Assembly: GCA_004297735.1 (NCBI GenBank)
Contig: SCTI01000002.1
Coordinates: forward strand, 350,180 to 414,179
DNA from: Patescibacteria group bacterium
GTDB lineage: Bacteria > Patescibacteriota > Saccharimonadia > UBA4664 > SCTI01
Direction: 5' to 3'
DNA: 64,000 bases
Shown one piece after another: positions 28,266 through 43,203 of the stretch. Position 1 is the first letter of the stretch. Every line of letters starts with the position of its first letter. Under the pieces are notes generated by a model. It was not told the origin of the DNA and did no database searches. It saw only the letters and a list, made by a program, of their open reading frames with translations. The position numbers and the translations under genes are program-made.

Positions 28266-29303
28266 ATGCGCCAGCTGTTTGTAGCTGTGGTTTTGTTGTG
28301 CGCGTTGGCCTTCCCGGCAAGCGTACAGGCAGCTCCATACTTCGATTTCGGCGTCCATGATGATGGCGCCGTTGTGTTTAATCGCGACCATCAGCGCCAG
28401 CCGGTGCTGAGGCGGGCGCGTGACATCGGCGCCACCTGGCTCCGCACCATCATCTACCGTGATCGCGTTCAAGGCGGTAACTTTCGGGTTTACCGGCGTT
28501 CGATTCGGGATGTCTACCGCCATCATTTTCACGTTCAAGCGGTAATTGAATGTAGCGGTCAGGCCTGGACACCGGATAGCTTTGCGGCCTACGTCAAACG
28601 GGTGGTGCGGCAGCTCCAACCATTAGTGCGACGCTGGAGTATCTGTAACGAGCCCAATCAACCTGGCTGGCTAACCGCTATACCGGGCTACGATCTACCG
28701 ACCACCTACCGCTGGCTGTACCTTGCCGGCTACAGCGCGGTCAAACAGGTTCAGCCTCAGGCGGCGGTGCTGTTTGGCGAGCTTAGTTCCAACTACTACC
28801 CGCTAGAGTTTATGCGGAAGGTGTTTTGCGATCAGGGCGATTTGGATGGTAATTGCACTCAGCTTAAGACCAGCTGTGTGGCTTACCATCCTTACCAGCA
28901 GGAAAGCCCGCTATCACCCAGTAATGTGCCGTTTACGGTTGGCATTGGCTCGCTTAACTTACTGGTTGATGATCTCGATCAGCTCCATGCAAAAAACCTG
29001 TTAACCACCGCCAATGGCGTTGATCGTCCGCCACTGTGCCTAACCGAGTTCGGCTACCAGAGTCGGGCTCGCGGTATACTGAGGGTCCGTAACGTACCGG
29101 ACGAGGTGCGCAAGCAGCGTTGGCGTGAGGCTTTTAACTTGGTTTGCAAGTCGCCGATCATCAAGCAGATCTTTCTGTATCAGATGCAGTCAGAAGCAAG
29201 GGGCCGGTGGGATACCAGCATCATGAGCCGGAGCGGTCAGCCGGATAAGACCTACTTTGGCATTCGCAGCTGGCGTTATGCTCACCCTGAGTGCATGCGT
29301 TAG
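28266..29303 (+). CDS. secreted glycoside hydrolase, clan GH-A (TIM-barrel)-like
   Basis: Signal peptide (AFPASVQA-AP). ICNEPN (acid/base NEP motif) and LTEFGY (nucleophile) spaced as in GH5/GH39-type enzymes. Confidence 0.55.
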   Translation: MRQLFVAVVLLCALAFPASVQAAPYFDFGVHDDGAVVFNRDHQRQPVLRRARDIGATWLRTIIYRDRVQGGNFRVYRRSIRDVYRHHFHVQAVIECSGQAWTPDSFAAYVKRVVRQLQPLVRRWSICNEPNQPGWLTAIPGYDLPTTYRWLYLAGYSAVKQVQPQAAVLFGELSSNYYPLEFMRKVFCDQGDLDGNCTQLKTSCVAYHPYQQESPLSPSNVPFTVGIGSLNLLVDDLDQLHAKNLLTTANGVDRPPLCLTEFGYQSRARGILRVRNVPDEVRKQRWREAFNLVCKSPIIKQIFLYQMQSEARGRWDTSIMSRSGQPDKTYFGIRSWRYAHPECMR

Positions 29304-32133: not shown

Positions 32134-32209
32134 TGGTGGGCCCGGCTGGACTTGAACCAGCGACCAATCGGTTATGAGCCGACTGCTCTAACCACTGAGC
32201 TACGGGCCC
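32134..32209 (-). tRNA. tRNA with CAU anticodon, probably tRNA-Ile2 (lysidine)
   Basis: Cloverleaf GGGCCCGTAGCTCAGTGGTTAGAGCAGTCGGCTCATAACCGATTGGTCGCTGGTTCAAGTCCAGCCGGGCCCACCA. From memory it closely resembles enterobacterial ileX. tilS is encoded 750 bp away. Confidence 0.7.
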
Positions 32210-32300
32210 GTGATAATACTCCATGATTGTACCAGGTTGCTAACCGCTTGCAATCACCCGCTACCTGTTAATGCGTCGTCATTTGTATTACGCTTAAGGT

Positions 32301-32684
32301 ATGCAACGCGTTCGAGACCAGCTTCGTAAACTACACGTAGGCACCATTATTGGCGTGATAGTGGCGCTGTATATTGGTGTATATCTGGTTCAAACTATTC
32401 AAAAGAATTATGAGCTGCAAAAGCAAATTGATGGCTTACAGCAGGATGTGGCCGGCCTCGAGGTTGAGCAGGATCAGTTAAAGTATAAGATTCAGTACTA
32501 CCAAACCGAGGCTTTTAAAGAAAAAGAGGCGAGGGAGAAGCTGGGCCTGCAGCAGCCCGGGGAGAGCGTACTGATTCTGCCAAAAGACAATGCTCCAGCC
32601 GAAGATGAACAGCAGCAAAAGCCGGCAGCAACCCAAAAATCAAACCTACAACAATGGATTGATTTCCTGATGGGCCGTTCTTGA
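32301..32684 (+). CDS. septum formation initiator family protein (FtsB/DivIC-like)
   Basis: N-terminal TM then coiled coil (LQKQIDGLQQDVAGLEVEQDQLKYKIQYYQT). Confidence 0.55.
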   Translation: MQRVRDQLRKLHVGTIIGVIVALYIGVYLVQTIQKNYELQKQIDGLQQDVAGLEVEQDQLKYKIQYYQTEAFKEKEAREKLGLQQPGESVLILPKDNAPAEDEQQQKPAATQKSNLQQWIDFLMGRS

Positions 32685-32720
32685 CTGTAGGGGTAAAAGT
32701 TGGTAATATGCTGGGTACGT

Positions 32721-32797
<77 letters not shown>

Positions 32798-32866
32798 AGA
32801 AATTATGGACGGACTCGATCAGCGATTGCTGGTCGTTTTGTTTGTCGGTACAATTGTTTGGTACAT

Positions 32867-32941
<75 letters not shown>

Positions 32942-40803: not shown

Positions 40804-41254
40804 GTTGTATCTCCTGTATGTCTTTCAATATTTTTATGGCTTGGTCTTGGGGTTTTACGTCATGGTATTCTTTTACGATAATACCCTCTGGGTCAACTAT
40901 GTAAGTATTTCGGTGAATACCTAAGAATTCCCGCCCCATAAATTTTTTTGGGCCCCAAGCTCCAAAAGCTTGAATCACCTTTTTGTCCGGATCACTCAGA
41001 AGAGTAAATTTTAGGTTGTGGTTTTCGGCAAATTTTTTGTGCTTGGCAACCGTATCCGCCGAAATGCCCAGAACAGTGACATTGTGGCGTTCAAGCTCTT
41101 CTCGCCCATCACGAAAACTACACGCTTGCTTTGTGCATCCAGGGGTGTCGTCCTTGGGGTAAAAATAAACAACCACCCATTTGCCGCGGTAGTCGTGAAG
41201 ACTATGATCTGCACCGTTTTGGTCTGGAAGGGTAAAGTCGGGAGCCGGTCTCAT
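40796..41254 (-). CDS. bcp: thiol peroxidase, Bcp-type peroxiredoxin
   Basis: APDFTLPDQNG...VVYFYPKDDTPGCTKQAC. Confidence 0.85.
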   Translation of the reverse strand: MRPAPDFTLPDQNGADHSLHDYRGKWVVVYFYPKDDTPGCTKQACSFRDGREELERHNVTVLGISADTVAKHKKFAENHNLKFTLLSDPDKKVIQAFGAWGPKKFMGREFLGIHRNTYIVDPEGIIVKEYHDVKPQDQAIKILKDIQEIQHV

Positions 41255-41274
41255 GTAGTAATTATACCTTAGAA

Positions 41275-41344
41275 TGGTGGAGCAGTGGGGATTTGAACCC
41301 CAGGTAGGTAAGGTCTGAATTTACCACCAGACCAACTCTGCCCC
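41275..41344 (-). other. tRNA-like element (acceptor stem, T-arm, CCA) without a canonical D/anticodon arm; possible pseudo-tRNA or tRNA-like fragment
   Basis: Minus strand GGGGCAGAG...CCTGGGGTTCAAATCCCCACTGCTCCACCA: 7-bp acceptor pairing and a perfect T-arm, but only 67 nt before CCA and no cloverleaf fold. Confidence 0.3.
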
Positions 41345-41519
41345 GCTTGCGGCTGCGCCACCGTTTAAAACGATATCGAACTTACATTAAATAAATCTTA
41401 AGGATTGGACCTTATTGAGGGTTTTAGTTATAGTGGGGTCTAGGTAAGGTCTGAATCACTACCAGCCAAATAGCGCTCCGGCGCTATTTCTGCTTTTATA
41501 CTAACCAGCCATAATTCAA

Positions 41520-41546
41520 TTAGCACTCTTGACATGAGACTGCTAA
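41520..41546 (+). promoter_or_regulatory. CIRCE operator 1 (TTAGCACTC-N9-GACTGCTAA), overlapping the -35 of the hrcA promoter
   Basis: Left half 9/9, right half 8/9 versus TTAGCACTC-N9-GAGTGCTAA. Confidence 0.7.
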
Positions 41547-41558
41547 ATTACCTACTAT
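41529..41558 (+). promoter_or_regulatory. sigma70-type promoter of the hrcA-grpE-dnaK-dnaJ operon
   Basis: ttgaca -35, 18-nt spacer, tactat -10. Confidence 0.55.
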
Positions 41559-41566
41559 ATAAGGTA

Positions 41567-41593
41567 TCAGCACTGTATTAAACTGAGTGCTAA
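41567..41593 (+). promoter_or_regulatory. CIRCE operator 2 (TCAGCACTG-N9-GAGTGCTAA) in the 5' UTR
   Basis: Right half perfect, left half 7/9. Confidence 0.6.
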
Positions 41594-41607
41594 ATTAATG
41601 GTAAAAG

Positions 41608-42795: not shown

Positions 42796-43203
42796 ATGGA
42801 GCATCAACCAATGCCAGATCCAACACCAGATGGCCTCCTAGATCAAAAGGCCGTAGAGGCTTCGCTTATGGCGCTGGACGAAAGGGCCAAGGCTGAGCAG
42901 CAATACATGCACGAACAGTTAGAGGCTGGCATAAGGCCGAGTCAACTACTGGAGCAACTTGGAGGCAAGGAAGAGGCGGCGCGGATTATTGGCGAGTATT
43001 ACGCCGATGAGCTTGCGTCGAATCCGGAGGATAGAGAGTTTAATGAATGGGTGAACATACTTGAATTGCATAATAATGGCGCTACCGCCCAGCAGATCAT
43101 TGATCGGTATGGCGGACGCGAAGAGCTGGAGCGAGTACTTGGAACAAAAGCGGCTCAAGGATTTGTAGAAGATGCCAGACAAGAACTGAAAGGAGATAAC
43201 TAA
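42796..43203 (+). CDS. hypothetical 135-aa acidic protein embedded between grpE and dnaK
   Basis: Start 2 nt after the grpE stop; stop overlaps the dnaK start (TAATG). No motif. Confidence 0.5.

What the first reader, a model, noticed from the sequence alone, without database searches (positions are those of the whole stretch)
41255..41510. tRNA-like fragment, 27-nt partial direct repeat and hairpin in the bcp/hrcA intergenic region
Minus strand 41275-41344 carries a 7-bp acceptor helix (GGGGCAG/CTGCTCC), a perfect T-arm (CTGGGG-TTCAAAT-CCCCA) and CCA. Only about 30 nt separate them, so no D/anticodon cloverleaf forms. About 100 bp away (41440-41470) the segment ATTCAGACCTTACCTA...CCCCACT recurs with the T-loop deleted. 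Then comes a perfect 9-bp palindrome (aaatagcgc-tccg-gcgctattt, 41469-41490) followed by ctgctttta. Duplicated 3' tRNA/tmRNA ends are footprints of site-specific integration and excision. Alternatively this is a degenerate tRNA-like or tmRNA-like ncRNA.
Basis: seen in the sequence. Interest (0 to 1): 0.5.

Follow-up and report, generated by a model that had tools for sequence, protein, structure and literature searches.

The report
Tag-less mini-tmRNA relic in an intergenic insertion
The "tRNA-like fragment" is real: it is a 70-base copy of only the tRNA-like end of the ribosome-rescue RNA tmRNA, a kind otherwise seen mainly in phages, and it sits with a decayed second copy in a short stretch of DNA that related bacteria lack at this spot.

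Summary
On the minus strand, 41344..41275 is a 70-nt RNA-like element. It has a 7-bp acceptor stem with a G3:U70 wobble, a perfect T-arm, discriminator A and an encoded CCA, but no D or anticodon arm. It is not a tRNA for ARAGORN or Rfam. Rfam's tmRNA model matches it end to end, with about 310 nt of the model's middle replaced by 13 nt (40.9 bits, below the curated 47).

Searching with its 3' end and related patterns found many 62-83-nt "tRNA-like-domain-only" (TLD-only) tmRNAs in phage contigs. They show compensatory base changes, several head phage tRNA arrays, and the one published case (mycobacteriophage DS6A) matches the same model.

The window copy is a divergent member. It lacks the conserved UUCGAC...GGAC motif and has no promoter of its own, unlike the real tRNA genes nearby. 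The whole block (about 220-250 bp: element, decayed partial copy, hairpin) is absent from the compact bcp-hrcA spacer of four related Saccharimonadales loci.

Best reading: horizontally acquired DNA, probably from a phage or mobile element, and now probably a relic. The integration-footprint idea is not supported; the "tmRNA-like ncRNA" alternative is. The finding is a new member of a known kind, of moderate interest.

The parts
41275..41344 (-). 70-nt tmRNA tRNA-like-domain (TLD)-only element. Acceptor 5' strand 41344-41338; connector AGUU; central hairpin 41333-41312 (minimum-energy fold); 9-nt connector; T-arm 41302-41286 (loop UUCAAAU); acceptor 3' strand 41285-41279; ACCA 41278-41275.
   Evidence: Sequence. 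Fold -28.6 kcal/mol, z -2.2. Rfam tmRNA global match 40.9 bits. TLD-only model R1 48.3 bits against tRNA-Ala model R2 38.3 bits. No ARAGORN call.
41432..41467 (-). Decayed partial second copy (copy B) of the element's interior: GGCTGGTAGTGATTCAGACCTTACCTA-GA-CCCCACT. It has no acceptor strands, and the 5' half of the T-stem and the T-loop are deleted.
   Evidence: 16-nt exact repeat 41441-41456 = 41305-41320. Extended local alignment score 44 against 19.4 +/- 3.5 for shuffles.
41468..41499 (+). Perfect 9-bp hairpin with 4-nt loop (41468-41489) plus a T-rich tail. Terminator-like on the + strand; part of the inserted block.
   Evidence: one terminator-like site found, 0.4 expected; fold.
41273..41519 (.). 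Lineage-specific block (net about 217 nt extra) between the bcp -10 box and the first CIRCE operator of hrcA. The left edge is sharp, just after TATACCTTA. The right edge is undefined between about 41490 and 41519.
   Evidence: Alignment with the bcp/VIT1-hrcA spacers of L082, L083, L084 and L085, which are 88-142 nt long against 359 nt here.
41261..41266 (-). TATAAT box 6 nt before the bcp ATG (41254). It is conserved in the relatives and the insertion abuts it.
   Evidence: read directly from the sequences.
41520..41594 (+). hrcA control region: CIRCE 41520-41546 overlapping the TTGACA-18-TACTAT promoter, and a second CIRCE at about 41566-41594. This is flanking context and is conserved in relatives.
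   Evidence: (inverted repeat I2).

Best explanation
The element is a tag-less, TLD-only derivative of tmRNA: acceptor stem, T-arm and ACCA joined by a short hairpin. This kind is otherwise found mainly in phages and mobile elements; the published prototype is in mycobacteriophage DS6A. It arrived in the bcp-hrcA spacer of this Saccharimonadales lineage as part of a block of about 220-250 bp. The block also holds a decayed partial tandem copy and a terminator-like hairpin.

What is shown: its identity as a tRNA-like RNA with alanine-type features and no D or anticodon arm; its kinship with phage TLD-only tmRNAs; and the absence of the block from related genomes.

What is inferred:
- Origin. 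Horizontal acquisition from a phage or mobile element, followed by partial tandem duplication and decay.
- Status. Most likely a relic, or at most a passenger co-transcribed upstream of bcp.
- Mechanism if transcribed. Based on established tRNA and tmRNA biology, RNase P would cut at G41344 and AlaRS would charge it through G3:U70, A73 and CCA. The Ala-RNA could then compete with the host tmRNA for EF-Tu, SmpB or stalled ribosomes, as reported for a TLD-only molecule expressed in E. coli (Mao 2009, cited in PMC4131195 and PMC11915505). Because the conserved UUCGAC...GGAC motif is lost, efficient SmpB-dependent action is doubtful.
For: - Identity. The Rfam tmRNA model matches positions 1-374 end to end, with about 310 nt replaced by 13 nt.
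- Family. All 5 metagenome contigs sharing its 3' 24-mer carry the same architecture at 73-82 nt, and 4 of the 5 exceed the tmRNA gathering score. L091 is a phage contig encoding an internal virion protein, an endolysin and a ribonucleotide reductase.
- More members. 16 IMG/VR contigs match a strict TLD-only pattern. Several head arrays of 10-28 tRNAs. 9 of 17 pairs show compensatory changes and G3:U70 is invariant.
- Link to the published case. DS6A's TLD-only gene scores 60.5 bits with the same model. Pontimonas phage phiPsal1 scores 63.2 bits.
- Window element. It scores 48.3 bits with the TLD-only model and 38.3 bits with a phage tRNA-Ala model. The real tRNAs of the window score 20-26 and 44-58 bits respectively. 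It has A8 where all 17 tRNA-Ala sequences have T8.
- Insertion. The block is absent from L082 (HrcA 91% identical), L083, L084 and L085-L087.
- Relic status. There is no sigma70-like promoter within 200 nt upstream on its strand, whereas the three tRNA genes examined have one 12-22 nt upstream (the fourth, tRNA-Met at 32867, had no such site in the scan). The second copy is clearly broken. The motif conserved in the family is missing.
Against: - No donor was found. The 35-nt middle of the element and the rest of the block match nothing in phage isolates, IMG/VR or the fetched loci beyond chance.
- The context is housekeeping, not phage.
- The intact stems, G3:U70 and CCA could reflect selection. 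A rough estimate from the 12% divergence between copies A and B puts the chance of no hit in 35 critical bases at about 0.12, so this is not decisive either way.
- The nearest relative is distant (hrcA 81.5% nt identity, third positions near saturation), so the age of the block is unknown. Loss in the relatives is less parsimonious but not excluded.
- Model R1 also gives 36-52 bits to phage tRNA-Ala genes with the same ends. The family assignment therefore rests on a 10-bit margin, on Rfam keeping tmRNA over lower-scoring matches from the same clan, and on the missing arms.
Confidence: 0.55

Rival explanations
1. It is a functional chromosomal mini-tmRNA: a domesticated TLD-only RNA that is transcribed (from the promoter-like site 210 nt upstream, or together with bcp), processed, alanylated, and used for tag-less ribosome rescue or to modulate SmpB and trans-translation.
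For: All determinants for RNase P, AlaRS and EF-Tu are intact: 12 of 12 stem pairs, G3:U70, A73 and encoded CCA. Phage relatives are clearly under selection. Some phage members also lack UUCGAC/GGAC, for example L204 at 48.2 bits. Tag-less tmRNAs that appear to be retained exist in jakobid mitochondria and Mallomonadaceae plastids (PMC11915505).
Against: It was found in one species only, so no covariation test is possible. It has no promoter of its own, unlike the host tRNA genes examined. A broken copy lies next to it. The tandem G.A-forming motif conserved across tmRNAs is absent (alignment). The minimum-energy fold uses a helix different from the family's P2 helix (-28.8 against -21.5 kcal/mol).
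Confidence: 0.2
2. It is a tRNA-Ala pseudogene that lost its anticodon arm and part of its D arm by internal deletion. On this view it is not tmRNA-derived and its resemblance to the tmRNA TLD is convergent.
For: Most of the model scores come from the acceptor stem, T-arm and ACCA, which tRNA-Ala shares. Phage tRNA-Ala genes score 36-52 bits with the TLD-only model. GGUC...GACC could be read as a D-stem (by eye).
Against: Rfam's clan filter kept tmRNA and dropped two lower-scoring overlapping matches from the same clan, which includes the tRNA model. The score is 10 bits higher with the TLD-only model than with the tRNA-Ala model. It has A8 where all 17 tRNA-Ala sequences have T8. The 5' connector AGUUGGU resembles the AAUUGGU and ACUUGGU of phage TLD-only members with the same acceptor stem. 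Relatives have no tRNA gene at this site.
Confidence: 0.13
3. It is an integration/excision footprint. The two repeat copies would be attL/attR remnants of an element that integrated into a tRNA or tmRNA-like gene and was later lost.
For: The block is an insertion. tmRNA and tRNA 3' ends are common att sites; for example, Gordonia phage Yeezy carries a tmRNA-type 3' fragment next to its tyrosine integrase. The repeat core is exact over 16 nt.
Against: There is no target gene at the empty site in relatives. The fragment lies 5' of the intact copy and lacks the 3' end. Precise excision leaves no duplication. No integrase was found among the ORFs scanned within about 5 kb. Phage mini-tmRNAs are not flanked by partial repeats in the loci held.
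Confidence: 0.07
4. It is a cis- or antisense-acting regulatory arrangement. The tRNA-like structure would be a processing or stability signal in a long bcp leader. A roughly 55-nt + strand RNA (promoter-like site 41406-41434, terminator 41468-41499) carrying the antisense of copy B would pair with it.
For: The element ends 20 nt before the bcp ATG. In L088 and L089 a gene also starts 23-26 nt after the CCA. There are + strand promoter-like and terminator-like sites. The predicted duplex is -51.9 kcal/mol.
Against: The consensus promoter hits are weak (4 found against 1.0 expected). The bcp TATAAT box lies downstream of the element and is conserved in relatives that lack the block. There is no conservation data for the arrangement.
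Confidence: 0.05

Closest known systems
TLD-only tmRNA of mycobacteriophage DS6A (tmRNA Website tmID 11587; PMC4131195 Table 2, PMC11915505)
   Same: Both have an acceptor stem with G3:U70, a T-arm and a short connecting hairpin, and no tag reading frame or pseudoknots. Sizes are similar (DS6A 83 nt, window 70 nt). Both are recognised by the same model built from metagenomic phage members (60.5 and 48.3 bits).
   Different: DS6A keeps UGGU..UCGAC and a family-like P2 helix; the window copy has UCUGGU...CUAC instead. DS6A is in a phage genome. The window copy is in a housekeeping spacer of a bacterial chromosome, next to a broken second copy, and encodes CCA (DS6A ends CUA).
Standard one-piece bacterial tmRNA (Rfam RF00023)
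   Same: Both ends of the model align: GGGGCAGAGUUGG... and ...UGGGGUUCAAAUCCCCACUGCUCCACCA. G3:U70 and A8 are also shared.
   Different: There is no mRNA-like domain, resume codon, tag ORF, stop codon or pseudoknots; about 310 model positions are replaced by 13 nt. The UUCGAC...GGAC motif is missing. The score of 40.9 bits is below the gathering score of 47.
Tag-less organellar tmRNAs (jakobid mitochondrial mt-tmRNA; ~65-bp Mallomonadaceae plastid genes; PMC11915505)
   Same: They are also reduced to little more than the tRNA-like domain, with no tag reading frame.
   Different: The organellar genes are the only tmRNA of their genome and co-occur with SmpB. Here the element is a lineage-specific extra, and the host's own ssrA and smpB status is unknown. 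No sequence comparison with them was made here.
tRNA-Ala and alanine-accepting minihelices
   Same: G3:U70, A73, CCA and a canonical T-arm. These are the AlaRS identity set, as established knowledge.
   Different: There is no D-stem or anticodon arm, and position 8 is A rather than U. The tRNA models score lower than the tmRNA-type models.
att-site duplications of tRNA/tmRNA 3' ends made by integrases (e.g. Gordonia phage Yeezy attP, L112)
   Same: A direct repeat of part of a tRNA-like gene within foreign-looking DNA.
   Different: The repeat covers the interior of the gene, not its 3' end. The fragment lies upstream of the intact copy. There is no integrase nearby and no target gene in relatives.

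Membership tests
tmRNA, standard form (RF00023) | Acceptor stem with G3:U70, discriminator A, CCA | tested here: met
   7 of 7 pairs including G.U at position 3; ACCA encoded.
tmRNA, standard form (RF00023) | T-arm with a UUCRANU-type loop | tested here: met
   UGGGG-UUCAAAU-CCCCA.
tmRNA, standard form (RF00023) | mRNA-like domain with resume codon, tag ORF and stop codon, plus pseudoknots | tested here: not met
   About 310 model positions are replaced by 13 nt. ARAGORN finds no tag peptide.
tmRNA, standard form (RF00023) | D-loop analogue UGG.UUCGAC pairing with GGAC (tandem G.A) at the base of P2 | tested here: not met
   The GG is present (AGUUGGU), but UUCGAC and GGAC are replaced by UCUGGU and CUAC (alignments).
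tmRNA, standard form (RF00023) | Score at or above Rfam's gathering threshold | tested here: not met
   40.9 bits against 47.
TLD-only tmRNA (DS6A type, phage-borne) | Both tmRNA ends joined by a short hairpin, total 62-83 nt, no tag ORF | tested here: met
   70 nt; global matches to RF00023 and to model R1.
TLD-only tmRNA (DS6A type, phage-borne) | Conserved 5' connector (UGGU.UCGAC) and GGA(C) before the T-arm | tested here: not met
   The GGA before the T-arm was not forced by the search pattern: its A is invariant, the G next to it is present in at least 90% and the first G in 13 of the 15 members. The window has CUAC. A few phage members also lack the motif (L204, L219, L088).
TLD-only tmRNA (DS6A type, phage-borne) | Family-like P2 helix | tested here: inconclusive
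   GGUAA/UUACC can form at -21.5 kcal/mol, but the minimum-energy fold uses GGUCUGG/UCAGACC at -28.8 kcal/mol.
TLD-only tmRNA (DS6A type, phage-borne) | Scores better as TLD-only than as tRNA-Ala | tested here: met
   R1 48.3 against R2 38.3 bits. DS6A scores 60.5 against 34.6. The window's tRNAs score 20-26 against 44-58. The margin is small, and tRNA-Ala genes can reach 52 bits with R1.
TLD-only tmRNA (DS6A type, phage-borne) | Phage or mobile-element context | tested here: not met
   The neighbours are murJ, lepA, VIT1, bcp, hrcA, grpE and dnaK. The block itself is nonetheless a lineage-specific insertion.
TLD-only tmRNA (DS6A type, phage-borne) | Alanylation, SmpB binding, inhibition of or participation in trans-translation | not testable with these tools
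   This needs biochemistry or expression data.
Canonical tRNA (RF00005) | Cloverleaf with D arm and anticodon arm; U8 | tested here: not met
   No ARAGORN call and no Rfam gathering hit. Position 8 is A. Only 35 nt lie between the acceptor stem and the T-arm.
attL/attR footprint at a tRNA/tmRNA gene | The duplicated segment is the 3' end of the target gene, the displaced fragment lies downstream, and the target gene is present at the empty site in relatives | tested here: not met
   The fragment is upstream and internal. Relatives have no such gene at the site. No integrase is nearby.

The most novel reading that the evidence does not exclude
A candidate-phyla-radiation bacterium has domesticated a phage-type, tag-less mini-tmRNA. 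On this reading it is an alanine-accepting 70-nt RNA made from the bcp leader region. It would act on stalled ribosomes or on SmpB without tagging, or donate alanine off the ribosome. A short antisense RNA from the decayed copy (41441-41497, + strand) might hold it in check. It would be the first chromosomal bacterial TLD-only tmRNA kept alongside, or instead of, a normal ssrA.
Probability: 0.12. Interest if true: 0.65.

Novelty: new member of a known kind. Interest (0 to 1): 0.4.

Why it matters
For this locus the interest is modest. The element is an odd but explicable piece of acquired DNA, and it shows that neither ARAGORN nor Rfam at its curated threshold flags such elements.

If the copy proved to be expressed and charged, it would be a bacterial example of tag-less tmRNA. 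It would then offer a way to ask what the tRNA-like domain does alone, whether rescue without tagging or inhibition of SmpB.

The by-product may matter more. TLD-only tmRNAs, which the papers read here report for a single phage (DS6A), turn up in dozens of viral contigs, several at the head of tRNA arrays. They are unannotated even in the DS6A RefSeq record and in Pontimonas phage phiPsal1. This suggests that manipulating host ribosome rescue is a common phage strategy that current annotation misses.

Tried and rejected
- Canonical tRNA or tmRNA call. ARAGORN and Rfam at gathering thresholds found none.
- Orthologous loci through Bcp in GTDB genomes. The best hits are only about 59% identical and none carries the element. 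HrcA proved the better handle.
- Other copies in the window, and smpB in the window. None were found; the smpB search was a tblastn with E. coli SmpB only, which could miss a divergent smpB.
- A donor for the block. The exact 27-mer in viral contigs gave 0 hits. The 264-nt block against phage isolates matched only the 26-nt T-arm/acceptor end. The 5' 18-mer in viral contigs gave 0 hits. The 16-nt core occurs in 10 viral contigs, but with no flanking similarity, so these are chance hits. The middle of the element compared with all collected mini-tmRNAs scores within the null range.
- Partial repeats flanking phage mini-tmRNAs, as an att-like signature. None were found.
- Small ORFs in the spacer. 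Only 21-31-aa frames overlap the RNA features; nothing is credible. A tag-like frame running into the acceptor stem (..AAASGAELVWW*) was judged coincidental.
- Reading the copy B - spacer - copy A region as an intron-split or permuted tmRNA. Rejected because copy B has no acceptor strand and no T-loop.
- More strains of the same species. Only one Logan contig exists. The contig for P0001 is too short upstream.
- Mao et al. 2009 could not be read. It is cited only through the two Williams-lab papers.
- A 10-nt match (AAATTCAGAC) between the repeat core and the L082 spacer, next to CIRCE, was noted. Its position differs and chance probability is about 0.03, so it is left unexplained.

Full report
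**What is in the sequence**

Read on the minus strand, 41344..41275 is GGGGCAG AGUUGGUCUGGUGGUAAAUUCAGACCUUACCUACC UGGGG UUCAAAU CCCCA CUGCUCC A CCA.
- The 7-bp acceptor stem carries a G.U wobble at its third pair.
- The T-arm is perfect, the discriminator base is A, and CCA is encoded.
- Only 35 nt separate the acceptor stem from the T-arm. They form a single hairpin in the minimum-energy fold (-28.6 kcal/mol, z = -2.2).

ARAGORN finds four ordinary tRNAs in the window and nothing here. Rfam at curated thresholds agrees.

The exact 16-nt repeat (41305-41320 and 41441-41456) is real and non-random. Aligned by hand and by local alignment, the upstream copy matches the element's interior from position 8 to about 64. 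It has a 13-nt deletion that removes the 5' half of the T-stem and the T-loop, and it has no acceptor strands (score 44 against 19.4 +/- 3.5 for shuffles).

The 9-bp hairpin lies at 41468-41489 and is terminator-like on the + strand. A separately assembled Logan contig is identical across the whole spacer.

**What kind of RNA it resembles**

A sensitive Rfam scan of the spacer aligns the standard tmRNA model end to end (positions 1-374). About 310 positions, covering the pseudoknots and the tag reading frame, are replaced by 13 nt. The score is 40.9 bits, E 6e-15 for that search, under the curated 47. Two lower-scoring overlapping matches from the same Rfam clan, which includes the tRNA model, were left out. 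The element is thus the tRNA-like domain (TLD) of tmRNA without its messenger part.

**Relatives elsewhere**

One metagenome scan with the 3' 24-mer (T-loop degenerate) returned five contigs.
- All five carry 73-82-nt elements of the same build.
- Four of the five exceed Rfam's tmRNA threshold, at 49.9-72.6 bits.
- None is seen by ARAGORN.
- One contig is clearly phage, encoding an internal virion protein, an endolysin and a ribonucleotide reductase. Another encodes a protein that by eye resembles a primase-polymerase.

A strict TLD-only pattern found 16 IMG/VR contigs. In several, the mini-tmRNA is the first gene of an array of 10-28 tRNAs. Fifteen distinct sequences align with 9 of 17 base pairs showing compensatory changes and an invariant G3:U70. 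This is a functional RNA family.

After tRNA-Ala genes were removed, about 30 further distinct 62-75-nt minis with varied middles remained.

The papers I could read name one phage case, mycobacteriophage DS6A ("TLD only"). They report that such a molecule inhibits tmRNA in E. coli, perhaps by titrating SmpB, and they describe tag-less organellar tmRNAs (PMC4131195; PMC11915505). The model I built from the metagenomic members (R1) finds the unannotated DS6A gene at 28478-28560 with 60.5 bits. It also finds an unannotated one in Pontimonas phage phiPsal1 with 63.2 bits. This ties the family to the published case.

**Where the window copy stands**

R1 gives the window element 48.3 bits (E 6e-10 over 64 kb). 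The window's true tRNAs get 20-26 bits.

There is a caveat. Phage tRNA-Ala genes with the same ends get 36-52 bits with R1, so I built a competitor model from 17 phage tRNA-Ala genes. Scores with the two models compare as follows:

| Sequence | TLD-only model R1 (bits) | tRNA-Ala model R2 (bits) |
|---|---|---|
| Window element | 48.3 | 38.3 |
| DS6A TLD-only gene | 60.5 | 34.6 |
| Window's real tRNAs | 20-26 | 44-58 |

Position 8 is A here, as in the tmRNA consensus. It is T in all 17 tRNA-Ala sequences.

The element is nonetheless a divergent member.
- The conserved UGGU.UCGAC ... GGAC motif is replaced by UGGUCUGGU ... CUAC. In tmRNA this motif forms the tandem G.A pairs at the base of helix 2, at the SmpB side of the TLD (established knowledge).
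- The family-like P2 helix (GGUAA/UUACC) is 7 kcal/mol worse than the alternative helix GGUCUGG/UCAGACC.
- A few phage members also lack the motif (L088, L204, L219), so this alone does not prove decay.

**The locus**

The organism is a Saccharimonadales (Patescibacteria), judged from HrcA and Bcp relatives. I fetched the loci of HrcA relatives at 91, 85, 80 and 69% identity. Their bcp-hrcA or VIT1-hrcA spacers are 88-142 nt long, against 359 nt here.

Those spacers keep both CIRCE operators, the hrcA promoter, and a TATAAT box 5-7 nt before the divergent gene's ATG. They lack everything from just upstream of that box to about 41490-41519. The element, the partial copy and the hairpin are therefore one lineage-specific block. 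Insertion in this lineage is the parsimonious polarity.

The nearest relative is far away (hrcA 81.5% and bcp 68.7% nt identity), so the age of the block is open. The ORFs scanned nearby are housekeeping genes and none matched an integrase. There is no second copy of the block in the 64 kb, and a tblastn with E. coli SmpB found no smpB.

**Expression clues**

Three of the window's four real tRNA genes have a sigma70-like promoter ending 12-22 nt upstream; the fourth, tRNA-Met at 32867, sits downstream of another tRNA-Met and had no such site in the scan. The element has none within 200 nt on its strand. The only candidate lies 210 nt upstream, inside the hrcA operator region. No terminator follows the element; the bcp -10 box follows 8 nt after the CCA.

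This argues against an independent gene. It leaves co-transcription with bcp, or silence.

**Verdict on the interpretations**

The att-footprint idea fails on the position and content of the repeat, on the absence of a target gene in relatives, and on the absence of recombinase genes. What survives is that the DNA looks acquired.

I could not identify a donor. Neither the middle of the element nor the rest of the block matches anything beyond chance.

My best account is a horizontally acquired, phage-type TLD-only tmRNA that underwent a partial tandem duplication and is decaying (confidence 0.55). The rivals are:
- a domesticated functional mini-tmRNA (0.20);
- a deleted tRNA-Ala pseudogene (0.13);
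- an att footprint (0.07);
- a leader or antisense regulatory arrangement (0.05).

**Limits**

Only one species carries the block, so no covariation or purifying-selection test is possible for the window copy. The host's own ssrA and smpB could not be examined. No expression data are available. The E-values of my two models are rough by construction.

Noticed in passing
L093-L108, L088-L092, L122, L125, L129, L130, L153, L158, L169, L184, L204 and others; L234 28478-28560 (DS6A); L111 1501-1582 (phiPsal1): TLD-only mini-tmRNAs of 62-83 nt are widespread in viral contigs and several head phage tRNA arrays of 10-28 genes. ARAGORN misses them. They are unannotated in the DS6A RefSeq record and in Pontimonas phage phiPsal1. 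The papers I read name only DS6A as a phage case.
   Followed up: partly
window 41406-41499 (+ strand): A promoter-like site (TGGACC-17-TATAGT) is followed by the antisense of copy B and then the terminator-like hairpin. The resulting roughly 55-nt + strand RNA would be complementary to the TLD element (predicted duplex -51.9 kcal/mol). This is untested and may be coincidence.
   Followed up: partly
window 41254-41266 (-); the same position in L082, L083, L084, L085: bcp (VIT1 in L083) has a conserved TATAAT box only 5-7 nt before its ATG in the relatives fetched (less clear in L084). This suggests leaderless or near-leaderless mRNAs from promoters dominated by the -10 box.
   Followed up: no
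window 32134-32941: Three tRNA-Met (CAT) genes cluster within 800 bp, one on the minus strand and two on the plus strand. The divergent pair each has its own sigma70-like promoter and one of the pair has a terminator. They probably include initiator, elongator and tRNA-Ile2-type species; this was not resolved.
   Followed up: no
window 42796-43203 (+); L082 5205-5831, L083 3018-3665, L085 5279-5893: An ORF with no Pfam match lies between grpE and dnaK. It is 135 aa here and 204-215 aa in relatives, one of which has a faint DUF433 hit. It is an unusual insert in the hrcA-grpE-dnaK operon.
   Followed up: no
L082 spacer (minus strand), immediately after the first CIRCE: The 10-mer AAATTCAGAC matches the start of the window's repeat core (AAATTCAGACC) but sits at a different position in the spacer. 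Chance probability is roughly 0.03. It could be a microhomology used during insertion; this is unexplained.
   Followed up: no
L123 9104-9202: This phage sequence was not in the non-tRNA list from ARAGORN, so I took it for a tRNA. It nevertheless scores higher with the TLD-only model (52.6 bits) than with the tRNA-Ala model (43.9 bits). It lies at the head of a large tRNA array and may be an intermediate form.
   Followed up: no
L112 1482-1535 (Gordonia phage Yeezy) and related Gordonia phages: A tmRNA-type 3' fragment (T-arm, acceptor 3' strand and CCA) lies directly beside the tyrosine integrase gene, which suggests it is the attP. In phage Madeline the same site is annotated as tRNA-Ser.
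   Followed up: no
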